Below are positions 11,069 through 19,167 of a stretch of DNA of 64,000 bases, one piece after another. This DNA comes from a plasmid. Position 1 is the first letter of the stretch. Each line of letters opens with the position of its first letter. The position numbers and the translations under genes are program-made. Below the pieces are notes generated by a model. It had not been told where the DNA came from and ran no database searches. It saw only the letters and a program-made list of their open reading frames with translations. Where the stretch lies: NCBI RefSeq assembly GCF_053078305.1, contig NZ_CP166875.1; one strand, written 5' to 3'.

Positions 11069-11125
11069 GGGGGTTCGCGCCCATTTCCTCTAAAAGTCTC
11101 ACCTTGCTTAGGTAATTAATTGAAT

Positions 11126-11707
11126 TTATTTATAAAACGTTGCAATTTTAGCATCATTTTTTATTGTTCTTTTTAACCTGAAGTACGTCGATCGAGAGAT
11201 ACCTGTTTTTTCTGTCACACTGCCCAGAGATTCTCCCTGTGATATAAGCTCCAACGCTGTAGGCGTTCGTGGATGCTTCTTCCTGCCAAATTTTACGCCT
11301 GCGGCAAGTGCCGCTATTCTTCCGTCGTTTGTCCGCTCCAGAATACGCTCACGTTCCGCTTCAGCTACAGCAGCAAGGATTTGGATAACCATTTTGCCCA
11401 TTGTCCCTTCTGTACTGAGACCGTTCTCCAGGAACCGGATGGCGATCCCCTTTTTGTAACAGCTATCAACCACACGAATCATGTCAGCAGTGTTACGCCC
11501 CAGTCGGTCCATTTTTGTACAGATGATTACGTCGTCTTTCTCTGCACGGGCCAACAACCGCTGTAGTCCTTCCCGTTCATCAGTTGCGCCAGTCATCATA
11601 TCCGTAAAAATACGATCTTCCCGTACCCCGGCATTTTTTAGCTCCGAGATTTGATGTGTTAGCTTCTGATGACTGGTTGATACCCGTGCATACCCCAATA
11701 ACGCCAT
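11126..11707 (-). CDS. tnpR: serine recombinase (resolvase/invertase family)
   Basis: MALLGYARVSTSHQKLTHQ...; catalytic Ser motif and C-terminal HTH. Confidence 0.85.
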   Translation of the reverse strand: MALLGYARVSTSHQKLTHQISELKNAGVREDRIFTDMMTGATDEREGLQRLLARAEKDDVIICTKMDRLGRNTADMIRVVDSCYKKGIAIRFLENGLSTEGTMGKMVIQILAAVAEAERERILERTNDGRIAALAAGVKFGRKKHPRTPTALELISQGESLGSVTEKTGISRSTYFRLKRTIKNDAKIATFYK

Positions 11708-11863
11708 TTTTAGTCTCACTTATCGTTTTTGACACTGCATGGTATCATAATGTACAAAATACGATTTTTGAAACCTGCTTTTATGCTGTTTTAGACAGGT
11801 ATCAGATATCTTAATATTTGATACTAGCCATATTTAACAAATATTTAGCATTTTGGTAAATGT

Positions 11864-14800
11864 ATGCAGAAGTACAAGAAAAGAATTAGTATATTAACAA
11901 AAAGTGAAATAAATGAATTATATCAAGTCCCCTCTTTTAATCCTGTTGAAAGGGATGAGTTTTTTTCGCTGGATATCAGCCTTAAAAGAGAAATTGATAA
12001 AATAATAAATATAGAAAGCAGGGTGTATCTGATATTAATAACAGGGTATTTCAGATATAAACCTGTGATTCCTGAATTTACATTAAAAGACGTAAAAAGG
12101 GATGTGAAATATATTATCCAGACATATTATAAAAACGAAAGTACTAATCTCAATTTAAACATACCTAAAAGTACAAAGTACCGCCTTGTTAAACGAATGC
12201 TTTCTACTCTAGGATTTGAACAACTCACCCCATCTATAAAAAATGAGTTAAGTGAACGTCTGAATGATGTTGCTACTATATGTATGGAACCAAAATATAT
12301 TTTTGATGAATTACTTGCTTTTTTAGGACAGCGGCGTATAGCTCTTCCTGGATACAGTACTGTCCAGAACCTCGTTTCAGATGCTTTAAACTTTGAAAGG
12401 AAAAGGACAATTAATATTTTGTCAAAGAGAATTTATCCTGCCACTGCACAAAAGATTACATCCATCATCCATGATGATGGAATATTAAATTCCATCAGGG
12501 GATATAATTATAGCACGAGAGACTTCTCAGCATCAGAAATAGAAAATGAATTAAGAACTCACAATGTGATAAGTAGTATTTACTATGAAATAAAAGATAT
12601 AATTAATTCATTAGGTATATCCCAGGGAAACATGGAGTACTATGCAACTATCGTAAAACACAGTACAACATTCAGACTTAAGCGACACCCTAAATGGCAA
12701 GGAATACTTTATTTGTGCTGCTACTTGTACTTCAGATACAGAGAGATAAATGATAAAATAATCACAGCCTTCAGATATTTAGTAAAAAAACATAAAGACG
12801 CTTCAGTTTTGTTTGCAAAAGCTCGGGCAACAGAGGAAATAGATCTAATAAATAAAAAGCTTAAGTTTGCGAGTAAAATATTTAACTTCTTCGTTGATAG
12901 TAACATTGAAGACAGCATCCCTTTTGGATATGTTCGTGAAAAGGTTTTTTCACTTATATCGAAAGATGATATGCATCTTGTGAGTGAATTTTTTGACAAA
13001 AATAAAATCGATGTAATTGAATATCAATGGCAGTATATTGACAGCCATCACCTTAAGATCGCCAATTCAATCCGAAAGCTTTTTCTGGCTATAGATATAG
13101 TATATGACAACGAGAAGTCTGTTATTGGCCAGCAAATTACTGCTGCCAAGGATGATCTCAGAGGAAAAGGAAAGCTGGATGCTAAGGATCTGAGGGTAAT
13201 TCATCCATCCGAGAAAAATTACATTGTAAAAGAAGGAGAAATTAACACTCAACGATTCGAATTTCATATGTACAGCAGGGTATCTAACCATCTGGAAAAC
13301 GGTGTCTTTTATGCTGCGGAGAGTGAACAAAACAAGAGACTGGAAGATGATCTCATAGAACGAAGTTACTGGCATAAGAATAAATCGATTTTGATAGAGA
13401 AAACAGGCCTTGAACGACTTATCACACCAATAACGCAGACTCTTAATGAGCTGGAGAATACCTTTAGCGATAAACTGGCTCGTATAACCATTGGAATAAA
13501 CTCAGATGCTAATGAGTTTGTGAAAAAACAACCACACTCCAACAGATTACAGTGGAGTCTGGCCAGTAAAAAATGGAAGACCAGCATCGATAATCCGATT
13601 TACAATCAGATAAAAAATATCGGAATAGTTGACGTAATGAAGTATGTAAACAATGAGACGAATTTTTTGTCTGTGTTTAATGCCATATCATCCAGGAAAA
13701 ATAATCTTGAAGCTGACTATAATGACCTTCTTGCCTGTATATTTGGTAATGGCGCAAATTATGGTGTTCACAGAATGGCATCTGCATCAGACCGTAGTAT
13801 TGGAATACTACGTGATGTGAATGACAAATTCATTCGTCCAGAAACAACAGGAATGGCCAACACAGTAATATCTGATGCAATTGCAAATCTTTCTGTATAT
13901 AAATACTGGACGATAAATGAAGATTCTCCATTTGGAAGTGTTGATGGGCAGAAGCACACTTGCAGAATAAATACATTTAAAGCCCGTTATTCTGCCAAGT
14001 ATTTCAGAAAGGGGAAAGGGGTTTCTGCGATGACACTGGTATCTAATCATGTGCCATTATCAACTGTGGTAATTTCTCCAAATGAATATGAAGGTCATTT
14101 TGCATTTGACTTGTTATATAACAACACCAGTGAAATACAACCAAAGTCATTAGCGACTGACAATCATGGTATAAACAACGTTAATTTTGCGATTCTTGAC
14201 ATTTTTGGCTATCAGTTTTCACCACGTTATGCAAAATTCAAGAAAATATTTAATGAATTATTTGATGTTATACTGGAGAGTGATAAACTCATTATAAAAC
14301 TTAAAAAACAATTTAACTTTAAGCTCATTGAACATGAATGGGAAAACATCCAACATATTATTTGTTCTTTAAGCAGAAAAACAACCATTCAAAGTACGGT
14401 TGTTAAGAAGTTATCTAATACAAAGCGTAGCAACAAGACATTAGCAGCACTTCGGGAGTATGACCGAGTTATAAAATGCATATATGTCCTGGATTATGCT
14501 GACAATAAAACCTTAAGGCAATTTGTGCAACAAGCACTGAACAGAGGTGAAGCTTATCATCAACTAAGAAGAGCAATAGCATCAGTAAATGGAAATCAAT
14601 TTCGCGGTGGTAATGACTACCAAATAGATCAATGGAACGACTGTGCGAGGTTAATAGCTAATTGTGTAATCTATTATAATTCAGCAATATTATCCAGGCT
14701 GGTCGAGAAATTTGAAAAAGAAAATAATAAAAAAGCGATAGATGTTCTGGCTAACTTATCCCCAGTAGCATGGAGACACATTCTCCTTGGAGGGAATTAT

Positions 14801-14902
14801 TCTTTTGAAGATCAAGTTGCGATCACAAATTTGGACAGTCTTTTGGAGGGAGTAGACCCACTAAGTGATATCGGAGATATTGAGTCCGAATATGACGGTT
14901 AA
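11864..14902 (+). CDS. tnpA: Tn3-family transposase
   Basis: 1012 aa, size and position next to resolvase inside Tn3-type IRs; AT-rich codon usage. Confidence 0.75.
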   Translation: MQKYKKRISILTKSEINELYQVPSFNPVERDEFFSLDISLKREIDKIINIESRVYLILITGYFRYKPVIPEFTLKDVKRDVKYIIQTYYKNESTNLNLNIPKSTKYRLVKRMLSTLGFEQLTPSIKNELSERLNDVATICMEPKYIFDELLAFLGQRRIALPGYSTVQNLVSDALNFERKRTINILSKRIYPATAQKITSIIHDDGILNSIRGYNYSTRDFSASEIENELRTHNVISSIYYEIKDIINSLGISQGNMEYYATIVKHSTTFRLKRHPKWQGILYLCCYLYFRYREINDKIITAFRYLVKKHKDASVLFAKARATEEIDLINKKLKFASKIFNFFVDSNIEDSIPFGYVREKVFSLISKDDMHLVSEFFDKNKIDVIEYQWQYIDSHHLKIANSIRKLFLAIDIVYDNEKSVIGQQITAAKDDLRGKGKLDAKDLRVIHPSEKNYIVKEGEINTQRFEFHMYSRVSNHLENGVFYAAESEQNKRLEDDLIERSYWHKNKSILIEKTGLERLITPITQTLNELENTFSDKLARITIGINSDANEFVKKQPHSNRLQWSLASKKWKTSIDNPIYNQIKNIGIVDVMKYVNNETNFLSVFNAISSRKNNLEADYNDLLACIFGNGANYGVHRMASASDRSIGILRDVNDKFIRPETTGMANTVISDAIANLSVYKYWTINEDSPFGSVDGQKHTCRINTFKARYSAKYFRKGKGVSAMTLVSNHVPLSTVVISPNEYEGHFAFDLLYNNTSEIQPKSLATDNHGINNVNFAILDIFGYQFSPRYAKFKKIFNELFDVILESDKLIIKLKKQFNFKLIEHEWENIQHIICSLSRKTTIQSTVVKKLSNTKRSNKTLAALREYDRVIKCIYVLDYADNKTLRQFVQQALNRGEAYHQLRRAIASVNGNQFRGGNDYQIDQWNDCARLIANCVIYYNSAILSRLVEKFEKENNKKAIDVLANLSPVAWRHILLGGNYSFEDQVAITNLDSLLEGVDPLSDIGDIESEYDG

Positions 14903-14968
14903 CAACATGATAAATAATGGTTTTTATGCTAAGAGTGAGACTTTTGGAGGAAATGGGCGCAGAACCCC

Positions 14969-15274: not shown

Positions 15275-15299
15275 TGATGGTGCGTTGAACGTACAATAA

Positions 15300-15450
15300 G
15301 GGGTCCGCTTGGAATTCGGAAATTTTCCCACGCTAAGTGAATTGAGTTGAACGAGTGGTTACATCCAGGCCAGCTAACTCACTGAACGTAAAGACTGTAC
15401 GAAATGTTCCGACCGTCCGATAACCATTTGGCTTACTTCCGTACATTTCC
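15300..15450. repeat. Tn3-type 38-bp IR plus ~115 bp subterminal sequence, inverted copy of 9704-9856
   Basis: GGGGTCCGCTTGGAATTCGGAAATTTTCCCACGCTAAG followed by sequence reverse-complementary to 9704-9818. Confidence 0.7.
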
Positions 15451-15523
15451 TTGCGTAGATGTACAGAATTGTACGTTTTCGTACGGTTGGCCCTCAAACC
15501 CCATCCTTGAGTAGTGGCATAAG

Positions 15524-15553
15524 AAAACGGCTCCCTGTTGTGGAAGCCGTTAT
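15524..15553 (-). terminator. candidate rho-independent terminator downstream of the NUDIX gene
   Basis: Hairpin ACGGCTCC-loop-GGAAGCCGT followed by T-run on the minus strand. Confidence 0.45.
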
Positions 15554-15577
15554 CAGTTGCACGATTAGCATTGGAGT

Positions 15578-16003
15578 TTAAAGGATACCTTTCTGAGAAA
15601 ATGTGATCCGGGTTGCTTCATTTAAATCCATATATTTTAGGGTGTCAGGAGATGCCCAGACTATATCCTGAAACTCCTCATTAAATGTAACTGTACGGTT
15701 TGTACTGATACAGTCGAATATTAGGTAAATCATGTAAATGTCCTCGTGGGTACCATCCGGGTACGTTTTTGTACGGATATCATCACGAAAGGCCCAGGGT
15801 TTTACGTCAGTGATATGCAGTTCTTTTCCCAGTTCTTCCTTTATTTCACGCCTCAATGCTGTTTCCATAGTCTCTCCGGGTTCCATTCCTCCACCGGGCA
15901 GTGCCCATTGGCCCGGGAATACTCCGCGATCAGAGGCCATTTTACAAAGTAGAAACTCACCTTCATTTTGTATCACAGGGCACACTATTACTCTCTGGCG
16001 CAT
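15578..16003 (-). CDS. NUDIX hydrolase
   Basis: 141 aa with Nudix box [23 protein letters not shown]. Confidence 0.85.
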
Positions 16004-16004
16004 T

Positions 16005-16712
16005 TTATGTCCTCAACATCATGGCTTTTTGGATAACCTTATCAGAAAAATCATCAATGTCATCCGGGTGAGCACATACCATAATCCGCTCACGAAGGTG
16101 TAACGGAAGATTATCAGTAAAATGTTGATATTCCGCATGCCATCCTGTGATCCATTTTATCTTCATTTCCTCATCTGGAAATTCTTCAGGCCGTACACCA
16201 TGAATTTCATCATCATTGAGATGCATGAGTGAATGTGCGATGGGATAATTAATGAATGCTATAATGTCTGGCTCTGTAAGTAATTCATTTATTCTACTCC
16301 AGAGCACCATGTATGCATCATATTGTGCTTTATTTATATATTCGGACTTCAGCATGAAGTTGATAAAAATATAATCCTCAATATGGGATCTCTCCATAAT
16401 AAGGTTAAACCCTTTATCCAGCCAAGATTTTATCAGTAATGCCCGTTGTATCATAAAATTAAGCTGGATTAGATAACCGTAGTTACTGGTATCGTCAAAA
16501 AGGTAAGGAAGGAGAGTGTGGTGGACACTTTTTTCATCTATCGCGACAGTGTCTGGATCTACCTTAAATAACTCCTTTGACATGCGTCTCAGAAGAGTAC
16601 TTTTACCTACACCGGAATTACCCGACAGACATATATACAGAGGATTTCGAGTTTTATTCTTCTCTTTTTTATCTGCTGACCAAGGATCCATATACAAGTA
16701 ATTATATCTCAT
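16005..16712 (-). CDS. P-loop kinase, deoxynucleoside-kinase-like
   Basis: Walker [15 protein letters not shown] motif ([11 protein letters not shown]); start taken at ATG overlapping upstream stop (ATGA); ORF track extends to 16739. Confidence 0.7.
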
Positions 16713-17575
16713 ACTGTAAACTCCATTTTGTCCAACCAAAAGCGGTTGTTCTTACATTTTTGCATGATTTCATTATTTCCGAAAATTGCACTGATTATAT
16801 GATCTTGTGAATCTGTCAGCATATTTCCCAACAGAGTATAGTTTTCTCCATCAGGGATAATAATGTCAAAATTGGGTTCCATAACAACATTGGCTTTGTC
16901 CCGTTCTTCGAAAGTTGCCCAACTAATGGGCATGTTAGGGTGTTGTTTTTTTAGCATTACCATTTTCTCTTTAAATATATCCGTATTGATTTCCAGTTTA
17001 TCTCTTTTTTCTTTTCCGACTCCTAGAGGACAGAACTGGTAAAATCGCCAAGCTTGGATCTTATAGGGCAGAGAATCAACCCAGCAAACAATATCACTGA
17101 GATGATTAATGTTAGACTGAGATACGACGGTCGTGAGTTTTATATTAATTCGATTATTATTTTGGGGTAACCATGTTAATATATTTTTGATAACCCTGTG
17201 TTGGTTACTCATTTTATCACTGCGAATTTCTGAATTGACAAGACTGTCAATTCCATCAATTGGTATTCCTACCCAGTCTAACACCGGATTTAACCGAGCA
17301 TGATCCATAATAAATCGATGCCCGACCGTGGAGAGATATGTCATAAAACCCAGTTGCTTAGCGTATTCAATCAGATCAATGAAATCACTCCGGGATGTAG
17401 GTTCCCCTCCGGTAAAACCGATACGACGGAATCCCATTTTATACATCCGCTCAATTACATTACGAGCACTAGCAAGAGAAGAGTCCTGAATTCCAGGTGT
17501 ACGAAAACACTGATCACATCCTAGGTTACAATGTGAAGTTATTCTGAAATCTAAAAGAAGGGTGCTAATATCCAT
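16709..17575 (-). CDS. radical SAM enzyme, viperin-like
   Basis: CNLGCDQC (CxxxCxxC), GFTGGEP, and C-terminal WRFYQFCPLG resembling viperin WKVFQCL region. Confidence 0.75.
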   Translation of the reverse strand: MDISTLLLDFRITSHCNLGCDQCFRTPGIQDSSLASARNVIERMYKMGFRRIGFTGGEPTSRSDFIDLIEYAKQLGFMTYLSTVGHRFIMDHARLNPVLDWVGIPIDGIDSLVNSEIRSDKMSNQHRVIKNILTWLPQNNNRINIKLTTVVSQSNINHLSDIVCWVDSLPYKIQAWRFYQFCPLGVGKEKRDKLEINTDIFKEKMVMLKKQHPNMPISWATFEERDKANVVMEPNFDIIIPDGENYTLLGNMLTDSQDHIISAIFGNNEIMQKCKNNRFWLDKMEFTV

Positions 17576-17869
17576 AACAAGTCCTCTGACTATGATACAT
17601 CAATAACCATTAAAACATAATGGTTATTGCAGACCATGACAAAGCGCAACCTTCGGCTTACCAGGGATATAATATCTGCCAGTAATCAGAGCAGTGGGTT
17701 GCGCAAGGAACTCATGAATGATGAGTTCCGGTAATCGCATTACTGGAAGCCCATGATCGGAGGGACGCTATCAGTCACACCAGTGAAAATTGTGCACAGA
17801 AGCATTTTCATCACTGACAGGCCGTATGCCTCACAAGACGGGAGATAACTGGAGAATATTTAGTTCTTC

Positions 17870-18759: not shown

Positions 18760-19167
18760 TTGATGACAATACTTGTGACGGCACAGGCTCAACTCATAGT
18801 TGGTGAGGCTATGGCGATAAAAAGTTTAGCTCCTGATGGAATGTTGGCCGCTGTATTTGAAGACGACGGGAATACCGGATATTTCTATGCACTTGATGAG
18901 TCCGTTGAAGGTAACCCTGTCAGGGATGCTGTGCATATATATAACGTTGAAGACATTTCAGATGCTCACATCCCCTCTGATGTGAAGATTGGCTGGTCTG
19001 AGGATTGCCTGAAGTGTGTTCTGCTGATAAACGGATATCCACATGGGGTATTCGATTTTGAGGGGAAGAACGGCTACTGTCGAAGTGGATTCCCGCCACC
19101 GGTTAATCATGAATGGTCTGTTCAGGGGCATTCATGGGATGATTACGTCGATAATTTCTTCCGGTGA
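18760..19167 (+). CDS. hypothetical protein
   Basis: 135-aa ORF, no recognisable motif. Confidence 0.4.
   Translation: MMTILVTAQAQLIVGEAMAIKSLAPDGMLAAVFEDDGNTGYFYALDESVEGNPVRDAVHIYNVEDISDAHIPSDVKIGWSEDCLKCVLLINGYPHGVFDFEGKNGYCRSGFPPPVNHEWSVQGHSWDDYVDNFFR

What the first reader, a model, noticed from the sequence alone, without database searches (positions are those of the whole stretch)
15524..17700. AT-rich three-gene operon: viperin-like radical SAM, dNK-like kinase and NUDIX hydrolase - candidate nucleotide-modifying antiviral system
Three tightly coupled minus-strand genes: the radical SAM stop overlaps the kinase start (ATGA at 16709-16712), the kinase-NUDIX gap is 1 nt, and a hairpin terminator follows. 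The radical SAM protein has CNLGCDQC and GFTGGEP and a C-terminal WRFYQFCPLG stretch that aligns by eye with the viperin WKVFQCL region. The kinase has a Walker A (GNSGVGKST) and a deoxynucleoside-kinase ERS motif; the third gene has a canonical Nudix box. Prokaryotic viperins are known to sit beside nucleotide kinases and make chain-terminating ddh-nucleotides. The NUDIX partner and the plasmid setting, next to a solo Tn3-type IR and a StbDE toxin-antitoxin, may not have been described. The composition is much more AT-rich than the backbone, so it was acquired horizontally.
Basis: partly seen in the sequence, partly recalled or inferred. Interest (0 to 1): 0.85.

Follow-up and report, generated by a model that had tools for sequence, protein, structure and literature searches.

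The report
Plasmid-borne thionucleoside antibiotic gene cluster
These three plasmid genes are a relative of the thmABC cluster, shown in 2025 to make the antibiotic 4'-thiothymidine and to protect its producer, so they are most likely a weapon-plus-immunity module against rival bacteria and not a viperin anti-phage system.

Summary
Three intact, tightly coupled minus-strand genes (radical SAM 16709-17575, dNK-family kinase 16005-16712, NudI-type Nudix 15578-16003) are followed by a hairpin terminator.

The same three-gene order is kept in all 12 intact related loci from Enterobacterales and Vibrio. One of these is Photorhabdus asymbiotica DSM 15149, where the published cloning primers map onto it. 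That locus is thmA-thmB-thmC, shown by Son et al. (mBio 2025, PMC12691670) to produce 4'-thiothymidine in E. coli, with thmC alone conferring self-resistance. The window proteins are 70, 53 and 58% identical to ThmA, ThmB and ThmC.

The cassette sits on a colicin B/M-type IncF plasmid, which fits a role in competition between bacteria. The product of this E. coli version has not been measured.

Verdict: new member of a known kind, of modest interest.

The parts
16709..17575 (-). thmA-like radical SAM gene (288 aa). It has a viperin-like fold and CX3CX2C at C16/C20/C23.
16005..16712 (-). thmB-like kinase of the dNK family (235 aa). It is AbmG-like, with Walker [10 protein letters not shown] and the MERSH motif.
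   Evidence: PF01712 at 2.8e-19. 53% identical to ThmB. Best solved relative is 8j5e 'deoxyadenosine/deoxycytidine kinase': E 1.8e-30, 34% over 177 aa. The ATG start is supported by homologue alignments that begin at residue 1.
15578..16003 (-). thmC-like NudI-type Nudix nucleoside triphosphatase (141 aa), the presumed self-resistance gene.
   Evidence: NCBIfam NudI equivalog 250.8 bits, cut-off 95. PDB NudI 6dt3 at 4.5e-65. 58% identical to ThmC. ThmC alone gave an MIC above 128 ug/mL against 0.125 (PMC12691670).
15526..15551 (-). Intrinsic-terminator-like hairpin after the Nudix gene.
   Evidence: 10-bp stem with 6 G-C pairs, then TTCTT. The only Rfam match here is a sub-threshold ctRNA hit to this hairpin, 33 bits against 50.
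17614..17642 (-). Promoter-like site (TTGTCA-17-TATGTT) upstream of thmA. This is a consensus match only.
   Evidence: The number of such sites in the region is not above the shuffled expectation, so it is weak on its own.
17603..17627 (.). Conserved 25-bp palindrome ATAACCA-N11-TGGTTAT, 52 nt upstream of the thmA ATG. It overlaps the -10-like hexamer and is a candidate operator.
   Evidence: Unique in the 64-kb window, matching all 14 fixed positions. The same motif lies at the same distance (52-74 nt) in L004, L006 and L015 (14/14), L007 (13/14), and L003, L008 and L012 (12/14).

Best explanation
The cassette is a thmABC-type biosynthetic gene cluster for a 4'-thio pyrimidine nucleoside antibiotic. 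The product is 4'-thiothymidine or a close analogue. The cluster has built-in self-resistance and is carried on a conjugative colicin B/M-type IncF plasmid.

Proposed steps:
1. The ThmA-like radical SAM enzyme binds one [4Fe-4S] cluster through C16/C20/C23. It cleaves SAM to the 5'-deoxyadenosyl radical and attacks the sugar of a pyrimidine nucleotide, so that the ring oxygen O4' is replaced by sulfur. This step is inferred. Viperin abstracts H4' of CTP, and ThmA keeps the viperin barrel and three of viperin's phosphate-contacting basic or hydroxyl positions.
2. The ThmB-like kinase, a homologue of AbmG, carries out the phosphorylation-driven step. For AbmG in albomycin thiofuranose formation this has been described as 'net dehydration via cryptic phosphorylation'. 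Inferred by homology.
3. The nucleoside is released. [quoted passage not shown] This is shown for 4'-thiothymidine.
4. The ThmC-like NudI hydrolyses the toxic triphosphate in the producer. Resistance is shown for the Photorhabdus orthologue. The hydrolytic mechanism is inferred from the annotated nucleoside triphosphatase function of the NudI family.

What is shown here is orthology, synteny and fold. The product and the resistance are shown only for the Photorhabdus orthologue.
For: Gene order and spacing:
- The order radical SAM, kinase, NudI, with overlaps or gaps of a few bases in all but L011 (81 nt between kinase and Nudix gene), is kept in the 12 intact family loci. These come from Rahnella, Xenorhabdus (3), Siccibacter, Vibrio (2), Edwardsiella, Photorhabdus (2), Acerihabitans and an Erwinia MAG. 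Identities to the window fall together across the three proteins.

Link to thmA-C:
- L011 is P. asymbiotica DSM 15149.
- The paper's thmC forward primer (24 nt) matches L011 exactly at the NudI start.
- The thmA primer's 3' end matches the radical SAM start.
- The reverse primer's 3' end matches the NudI stop with one mismatch.
- Son et al. showed that thmA-C expressed in E. coli BL21 gives 4'-thiothymidine by ESI-MS and bioassay. They showed that thmC alone raises the MIC from 0.125 to above 128 ug/mL. They also reported homologous three-gene clusters in Enterobacterales and Vibrio.

Similarity of the window proteins:
- They are 70, 53 and 58% identical to ThmA, ThmB and ThmC.
- The ThmA family is a tight group at 280-597 bits among full-length members. 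Other proteins reach at most 52 bits in the word-indexed search and at most 187 bits with the family profile.
- The kinase's best solved relative is a Streptomyces-like 'dAdo/dCyd kinase', 8j5e (E 1.8e-30, 34% identity). This matches the paper's figure of 34.5% between ThmB and AbmG.

Context:
- The window from 28.3 to 50 kb matches colicin B/M plasmids.
- The one other plasmid with the full cassette carries colicin and colicin-immunity genes 4-6 kb away.
Against: - No product or resistance phenotype has been measured for this E. coli cassette.
- At 53-70% identity, the base or sugar specificity could differ. Son et al. themselves leave the products of the homologous clusters open.
- The ThmA reaction has not been reconstituted, and its sulfur donor is unknown. 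Unlike AbmM, ThmA has no extra cysteine set for an auxiliary cluster. Only C182 and C274 are conserved beyond the SAM cluster, and neither is invariant.
- The Photorhabdus cluster is silent under normal culture, so expression from this plasmid is unknown.
- PADLOC's pVip models do hit the protein at 104.5 bits.
Confidence: 0.8

Rival explanations
1. It is the same class of cluster with a different product. The E. coli/Rahnella/Erwinia branch would make another sugar-modified pyrimidine nucleoside, for example a 4'-thio-deoxyuridine or 4'-thio-deoxycytidine analogue, and not 4'-thiothymidine itself. The Nudix protein would be tuned to that compound.
For: ThmB and ThmC are only 53% and 58% identical to the characterised proteins. 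The window branch and the Photorhabdus branch are the most distant in the NudI tree. More divergent ThmA relatives pair with other partners: dNK plus an inositol-phosphatase-family protein, or HAD plus a phosphoribosyltransferase. This shows plasticity in the chemistry. Son et al. leave the products open.
Against: ThmA is 70% identical with no gaps over 278 residues, and every family-invariant residue is kept. The three-gene architecture is identical.
Confidence: 0.2
2. It is a prokaryotic viperin defence system: the radical SAM enzyme makes chain-terminating ddh-nucleotides from NTPs supplied by the kinase and blocks phage transcription, with the Nudix protein as an accessory.
For: PADLOC pVip 'viperins associated with kinases' scores 104.5 bits, E 1.6e-30. 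The best NCBIfam hit is viperin_w_prok. Viperin is the top structural match by a clear margin. Three pocket positions are kept: K146, R177 and T55 align with mouse K220, K247 and S124. Viperins are often linked to kinases.
Against: - The curated viperin threshold is not met, 84 against 180 bits.
- The C-terminal 85 residues cannot be aligned with viperin.
- Viperin's N-Y-H is replaced by an invariant D-F-R.
- The same pVip models hit the characterised ThmA equally, at 98.7 bits.
- The kinase is AbmG/dNK-like. It is not the CMPK2-related NMP kinase typical of viperin loci, and it matches VakA only at the P-loop.
- The orthologous cluster yields 4'-thiothymidine, and its Nudix protein is a resistance protein.
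- The setting is a bacteriocin plasmid, not a defence island.
Confidence: 0.04
3. It is a housekeeping or salvage module: a deoxynucleoside kinase plus a NudI pool-sanitising enzyme, with a radical SAM enzyme of unrelated or repair function. It would have no role as an antibiotic or in defence.
For: The Nudix protein passes the NudI equivalog model and is 67% identical to E. coli K-12 chromosomal NudI. RefSeq names the genes generically.
Against: The cassette is rare and mobile. The full form occurs in 1 of 5426 complete E. coli genomes, and its flanks differ in every species. The three genes are strictly co-inherited. There is direct evidence of antibiotic production from the orthologue.
Confidence: 0.03

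Closest known systems
thmA-thmB-thmC, the 4'-thiothymidine biosynthetic gene cluster of Photorhabdus asymbiotica (Son et al., mBio 2025, PMC12691670)
   Same: It has the same three protein families, in the same order and on one strand. Identities are 70, 53 and 58%. It is a mobile cassette whose flanks differ between species. The authors already noted homologous clusters across Enterobacterales and Vibrio.
   Different: This copy is on an E. coli conjugative IncF colicin-type plasmid, not a chromosome. Its genes are more tightly coupled (ATGA overlap and a 1-nt gap, against an 81-nt thmB-thmC gap in L011). Its product and resistance are untested. It has a full 25-bp upstream palindrome, of which Photorhabdus keeps only one half.
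Albomycin thiofuranose enzymes AbmG (deoxycytidine-kinase homologue) and AbmM (radical SAM sulfur-for-oxygen swapping enzyme) of Streptomyces
   Same: The kinase is a homologue of the AbmG type (34% identity to PDB 8j5e; ThmB-AbmG is 34.5% in the paper). Both pathways end in a 4'-thio nucleoside and use a radical SAM enzyme.
Prokaryotic and eukaryotic viperins (pVips; RSAD2), which make ddh-nucleotides
   Different: The protein is below the curated family threshold. The C-terminal sequence is unrelated, and NYH is replaced by DFR. The kinase belongs to a different family. The orthologue's product is a thionucleoside antibiotic. No evidence of phage defence exists.
NudI (YfaO), the chromosomal nucleoside triphosphatase of E. 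coli, Salmonella and Klebsiella
   Same: It gives a full-length match at 67% identity to K-12 NudI and passes the NudI equivalog model. K-12 NudI nests among the cassette-borne ThmC homologues in a neighbour-joining tree.
   Different: Here the gene is the last gene of the thm operon and, by orthology, a specific resistance gene. Chromosomal nudI stands alone between yfaZ and ais.
Ophion (radical SAM OpnA + PHP + PRTase), an anti-jumbo-phage system (bioRxiv 10.1101/2025.09.30.679545)
   Same: [quoted passage not shown] A divergent ThmA relative (P0065) also sits beside a phosphoribosyltransferase and a HAD hydrolase.
   Different: The partner proteins differ.

Membership tests
thmABC-type thionucleoside biosynthetic cluster | A ThmA-family radical SAM protein | tested here: met
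   70% identity over 278 residues to ThmA of P. asymbiotica. It lies inside a tight family (280-597 bits for full-length members) that is separated from all other proteins (at most 187 bits with the family profile). All invariant family residues are present.
thmABC-type thionucleoside biosynthetic cluster | An adjacent AbmG-like dNK-family kinase (ThmB) | tested here: met
   53% identity to ThmB. PF01712. 34% identity to PDB 8j5e.
thmABC-type thionucleoside biosynthetic cluster | An adjacent NudI-type nucleoside triphosphatase (ThmC) as the third gene, with the same order and strand | tested here: met
   58% identity to ThmC. The order A-B-C is kept in the 12 intact loci.
thmABC-type thionucleoside biosynthetic cluster | Identity of the reference locus (L011) with the published thmA-C | tested here: met
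   Primer F-2 is exact at L011 7694. The 3' end of primer F-1 is exact at 5983. The 3' end of primer R-1 has one mismatch at the thmC stop. Primer R-2 as printed did not match within 3 mismatches.
thmABC-type thionucleoside biosynthetic cluster | Production of 4'-thiothymidine, and ThmC-mediated resistance | not testable with these tools
   Shown only for the Photorhabdus genes (PMC12691670). It needs expression of window 15500-17700, LC-MS and MIC assays.
Viperin / pVip antiviral radical SAM family | Radical SAM CX3CX2C motif and the viperin barrel fold with a C-terminal extension | tested here: met
Viperin / pVip antiviral radical SAM family | A score above the curated family threshold (NCBIfam NF038283 viperin_w_prok; TIGR04278 viperin) | tested here: not met
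   84.2 bits against a cut-off of 180. TIGR04278 is not among the best 25 of 44 families matched at E <= 0.01. The 10 nearest non-family relatives tested are also sub-threshold, at 97-125 bits. None of the 150 nearest representative clusters scores above 74 bits against human viperin.
Viperin / pVip antiviral radical SAM family | Conserved nucleotide-pocket residues and the C-terminal sequence | tested here: inconclusive
   hhalign gives 97% probability but aligns only ThmA residues 8-203. Mouse K220, K247, S124 and K120 correspond to K146, R177, T55 and R51, so these are kept. N77/H79 correspond to D9/R11, R245 to A175 and N222 to T148, so these are changed. The last 85 residues are not alignable. 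The roles of these residues come from my memory of the mouse viperin-CTP structures. Only S124, K220, N222 and K247 are corroborated as pocket residues, by PMC11970327.
Viperin / pVip antiviral radical SAM family | The associated kinase, when present, is a CMPK2-related NMP kinase | tested here: not met
   The kinase is of the dNK/AbmG type. PADLOC VakA matches only the P-loop, residues 27-48, at E 1e-4. The expectation comes from the Shomar et al. preprint.
Viperin / pVip antiviral radical SAM family | Makes ddh-nucleotides and protects against phage | not testable with these tools
   No assay was possible. The orthologous cluster's detected product is 4'-thiothymidine.
AbmM-type sulfur-swapping radical SAM enzymes | Homology to AbmM | tested here: not met
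NudI nucleoside triphosphatase (NF012016 equivalog) | A full-length match above the curated cut-off, with a Nudix box | tested here: met
   250.8 bits against 95, covering 1-141 of 141. PDB NudI at 4.5e-65. The Nudix box G38-X5-E44-X7-REIKEELG is present.

The most novel reading that the evidence does not exclude
Conjugative colicin plasmids of E. coli would carry a small-molecule 'colicin': a thionucleoside antibiotic plus its Nudix immunity gene. The thionucleoside is made by a viperin-fold radical SAM enzyme that uses viperin-like sugar-radical chemistry for O4'-to-S replacement without an auxiliary cluster.

On this reading, the core-genome NudI (YfaO) of E. coli, Salmonella and Klebsiella has no established physiological role (from memory; not checked here) and nests among cassette ThmC proteins. 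It would be an orphan immunity gene against such thionucleosides. The wider viperin-sister clade of about 280-aa radical SAM enzymes sits beside kinases and (tri)phosphatases, and would be a reservoir of nucleotide-analogue biosynthesis.
Probability: 0.15. Interest if true: 0.65.

Novelty: new member of a known kind. Interest (0 to 1): 0.3.

Why it matters
This result stops a plausible mis-annotation. Defence-system HMMs (PADLOC pVip) hit this protein, and they hit the characterised ThmA equally well. Viperin-like radical SAM enzymes next to kinases should therefore not be read automatically as antiviral.

It places a 2025-described nucleoside-antibiotic cluster on a transmissible colicin-type plasmid in human-associated E. 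coli. That is relevant to competition between strains in the gut. It also bears on resistance: the Nudix gene travels with the cluster, and sometimes alone, and in the Photorhabdus orthologue it raised the 4'-thiothymidine MIC by more than 1000-fold.

The clear viperin fold of ThmA was not mentioned in the paper. It gives a concrete mechanistic lead for how the thiosugar is made.

Tried and rejected
- **AbmM homology.** Rejected.
- **Literature search** for 'radical SAM + deoxynucleoside kinase + Nudix'. It returned nothing. A search for '8J5E' gave irrelevant papers. The AbmG and AbmM primary papers (PMC12857199, PMC12372959, PMC12401566) are not held, so their chemistry is cited only through Son et al. 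and their titles.
- **Ophion.** Read and set aside because its partner proteins differ.
- **Recent capture of the Nudix gene from the E. coli chromosome**, which its higher G+C might suggest. Rejected: chromosomal nudI is only about 70% identical at the DNA level, and the gene co-diverges with thmA and thmB across genera.
- **Riboswitch or known RNA in the leader.** Nothing reaches gathering score.
- **Primer R-2 of the paper.** It did not match L011 within 3 mismatches. Comparison by eye shows several substitutions and an indel relative to L011, so only F-1, F-2 and R-1 are used as evidence.
- **Per-site fit of the upstream palindrome to the IscR motif.** Statistically weak, so it is kept only as a lead.
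Full report
**1. The observation**

- a 288-aa radical SAM protein at 16709-17575;
- a 235-aa kinase at 16005-16712, counted from the ATG;
- a 141-aa Nudix protein at 15578-16003.

The sequence shows the ATGA stop/start overlap and a single base between the kinase TAA and the Nudix ATG. A terminator-like hairpin (10-bp stem, 6 G-C pairs) follows at 15551-15526.

Pfam gives Radical_SAM for the first protein and dNK at 2.8e-19 for the second. NCBIfam gives the NudI equivalog for the third, at 250.8 bits against a cut-off of 95.

G+C is 0.35-0.36 over the first two genes and 0.44 over the Nudix gene. The surroundings run from 0.42 to 0.56.

The Tn3-family inverted repeat at 15466-15502 is single-copy in the window.

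**2. Is the radical SAM protein a viperin?**

The resemblance is real.
- PADLOC's 'viperins associated with kinases' model scores 104.5 bits.
- The best NCBIfam hit is viperin_w_prok.
- The best solved sequence relatives are viperin-like enzymes, and HMMER aligns WRFYQF with WKVFQ.
- An AlphaFold2 model built on 26 family sequences is confident: pLDDT 91, pTM 0.90.
- Foldseek's best match is mouse viperin with CTP, at TM 0.80 over the whole length.

Family membership nevertheless fails.
- The curated viperin model needs 180 bits, and the protein scores 84.
- hhalign against human viperin gives 97% probability but covers only residues 8-203, so the last 85 residues are not alignable. I wrote the human sequence from memory and validated it at 633 bits against mouse viperin.
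- In that alignment mouse K220, K247, S124 and K120 correspond to K146, R177, T55 and R51. This is compatible with a phosphate-bearing nucleotide substrate.
- Viperin's N-Y-H, however, is an invariant D-F-R here. R245 corresponds to A175 and N222 to T148.
- A profile search of 1.84 billion representatives found a large set of radical SAM proteins of about 280 aa scoring 120-187 bits. Ten of the nearest were tested. All hit the viperin model best, and all are below its cut-off, at 97-125 bits.
- None of the 150 listed scores above 74 bits against human viperin.

ThmA-like proteins therefore sit in an uncharacterised clade that is a sister to viperins.

**3. What the cassette is**

The word-indexed search found 77 relatives. 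Most are from Enterobacterales, and they form a tight family. A scan of one genome per species returned 16 family loci.

In the 12 intact loci the order radical SAM, kinase, NudI is kept, with overlaps or gaps of a few bases in all but L011 (81 nt between the kinase and Nudix genes). The three identities to the window fall together, from 87/81/81% in Rahnella to 70/53/58% in Photorhabdus. The Nudix gene is therefore an integral part of the unit and not a recent neighbour.

The kinase's best solved relative was an actinomycete-like 'deoxyadenosine/deoxycytidine kinase', 8j5e, at E 1.8e-30. This led me to AbmG of albomycin biosynthesis. From there I reached Son et al., mBio 2025 (PMC12691670).

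That paper identifies thmA (radical SAM), thmB (AbmG homologue, 34.5% identity) and thmC (nucleoside triphosphatase) of P. asymbiotica DSM 15149 as the minimal cluster for 4'-thiothymidine.
- Expression of thmA-C in E. coli BL21 gave the compound by ESI-MS and bioassay.
- thmC alone raised the MIC from 0.125 to above 128 ug/mL without affecting AZT.
- The authors noted homologous three-gene clusters in Enterobacterales and Vibrio whose products are uncharacterised.

My locus L011 is from that strain.
- The published thmC forward primer matches L011 exactly at the NudI start codon.
- The 3' end of the thmA primer matches the radical SAM start (MYKPEE...).
- The 3' end of the R-1 primer matches the NudI stop with one mismatch.

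The window proteins are 70% (195/278, no gaps), 53% (119/225) and 58% identical to ThmA, ThmB and ThmC. PADLOC's pVip models hit the characterised ThmA at 98.7 bits, about the same as the window protein. That hit therefore cannot distinguish a viperin from ThmA.

**4. Mechanism**

Shown for the orthologue:
- the three genes suffice for 4'-thiothymidine;
- the compound is a prodrug activated by thymidine kinase, enters DNA, blocks replication and induces the SOS response;
- thmC confers specific resistance.

Inferred here:
- ThmA uses one [4Fe-4S]/SAM site and a viperin-type active-site barrel to generate a sugar radical on a pyrimidine nucleotide.
- ThmB acts like AbmG. That enzyme's action has been described as net dehydration via cryptic phosphorylation. 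I know this only from the title and citation in Son et al., because the primary papers are not held.
- The NudI-like protein hydrolyses the toxic triphosphate.

Open points:
- The sulfur donor is unknown. ThmA has no auxiliary-cluster cysteine motif. Only C182 and C274 are conserved beyond the SAM cluster, and each is missing in one family member.
- ThmA is unrelated to AbmM beyond the radical SAM core.

**5. Setting**

The complete cassette occurs in only one record of 72,556 plasmids and in one of 5,426 complete E. coli genomes. That record is pFHI_NMBU_11_02 (IncFIA/FIC, 99.7% identical). It is annotated there only as 'radical SAM protein | deoxynucleoside kinase | nudI'.

That plasmid carries a pore-forming colicin and two colicin immunity genes 4-6 kb away. 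The window from 28.3 to 50 kb matches colicin B/M plasmids. A bacteriocin plasmid is a natural home for a second weapon-plus-immunity module. It is not a typical defence island.

Two other plasmids keep the Nudix gene without the biosynthetic genes: one carries it intact (CP027341.1), the other carries a copy interrupted by IS256 (JBUBMP010000002.1).

**6. Wider family**

Divergent ThmA-family members pair with other partners. One sits with a dNK-type kinase plus an inositol-phosphatase-family protein. Another sits with a HAD hydrolase plus a phosphoribosyltransferase.

Relatives outside the family sit with HAD phosphatases, CYTH triphosphatases, thymidylate-kinase-like kinases, an MFS transporter and methyltransferases. 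The recurring theme is a viperin-like radical SAM enzyme with a kinase and a (tri)phosphatase. This suggests a broader set of clusters that make nucleotide analogues.

**7. Verdict**

The cassette is a new, plasmid-borne member of the published thmABC kind. I put 0.8 on the statement that it is a thionucleoside antibiotic cluster with Nudix self-resistance. Within that 0.8, roughly a quarter (the 0.2 I give the different-product rival) goes to a product other than 4'-thiothymidine itself. I put about 0.04 on the viperin-defence model.

Interest is modest at 0.3. The aspects not already in the literature I could read are the viperin fold of ThmA, the colicin-plasmid location in E. coli, the nesting of chromosomal NudI among ThmC proteins, and a conserved upstream palindrome.

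Noticed in passing
window 17603-17627; also L004, L006, L015, L007, L003, L008, L012 at 52-74 nt upstream of the thmA-like start: A conserved 25-bp palindrome, ATAACCA-N11-TGGTTAT, overlaps the -10-like hexamer and is unique in the 64-kb window. It fits 7-8 of the 9 fixed positions of the IscR-binding motif AxxxCCxxAxxxxxxxTAxGGxxxT (PMC4169559). Per-site statistics are weak: 8/9 is reached by 2-3% of shuffles. Photorhabdus and Xenorhabdus keep only the left half. It could be the operator that keeps the cluster silent.
   Followed up: partly
L067 3913-4338 (E. coli K-12 nudI) compared with window 15578-16003 and the thmC homologues of L004-L017: Chromosomal NudI of K-12 is 62-74% identical to the cassette-borne ThmC homologues and nests among them in a neighbour-joining tree. 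Photorhabdus ThmC is closer to K-12 NudI (65%) than to the window protein (58%). The core-genome nudI might be an orphan immunity gene, or it might be the source of thmC. MG1655 is nevertheless sensitive to 4'-thiothymidine in the paper.
   Followed up: partly
L002 6001-6647 (plasmid NZ_CP027341.1); NZ_JBUBMP010000002.1; NZ_JBUXMJ010000002.1: CP027341.1 keeps an intact thmC-like nudI (99.3% amino-acid identity) plus only the last 146 nt of the kinase gene. The rest is replaced by insertion-sequence genes. JBUBMP010000002.1 carries a copy interrupted by IS256, and JBUXMJ010000002.1 holds a partial NUDIX gene matching only 275 nt of the query. These look like orphan immunity remnants of the cassette.
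   Followed up: partly
window 28341-50000 and the wider plasmid backbone: The window is an IncF-type plasmid. This stretch matches colicin B / colicin M (ColBM) plasmids at about 96% (cba, cma, parM, integrase). Bases 3341-9547 match IncFII repA regions with RelE/ParE toxin-antitoxin genes.
   Followed up: no
window 11069-14968, 9737-9857 and 15299-15419: An AT-rich Tn3-family transposase gene (11864-14902, 1012 aa) is bracketed by its own 34-nt inverted repeats (11069-11102 / 14935-14968, 88%). These differ from the solo GGGGTTTGAGGGCC... repeat at 15466-15502. A 121-nt inverted duplication (97%) flanks the whole region. The transposon is absent from the otherwise matching plasmid CP045714, which has a recombinase gene there.
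   Followed up: no
proteins P0078-P0223; loci L068-L072: A large set of radical SAM proteins of about 280 aa (114 representative clusters at E<=1e-30, 4059 at E<=1e-10) is closest to viperin but below its curated threshold. Sampled members sit next to HAD phosphatases, CYTH triphosphatases, kinases, AdoMet decarboxylase, an MFS transporter and methyltransferases. Some are fused into proteins of 650-1100 aa. Their function is unknown.
   Followed up: partly
window 18760-19167 and 19476-20960: Downstream of the Phd/RelE pair lie a DUF2251 protein and a secreted-looking 494-aa alpha/beta hydrolase. Both are conserved with the cassette's neighbourhood in CP045714. Whether they are linked to the cassette is unknown.
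   Followed up: no
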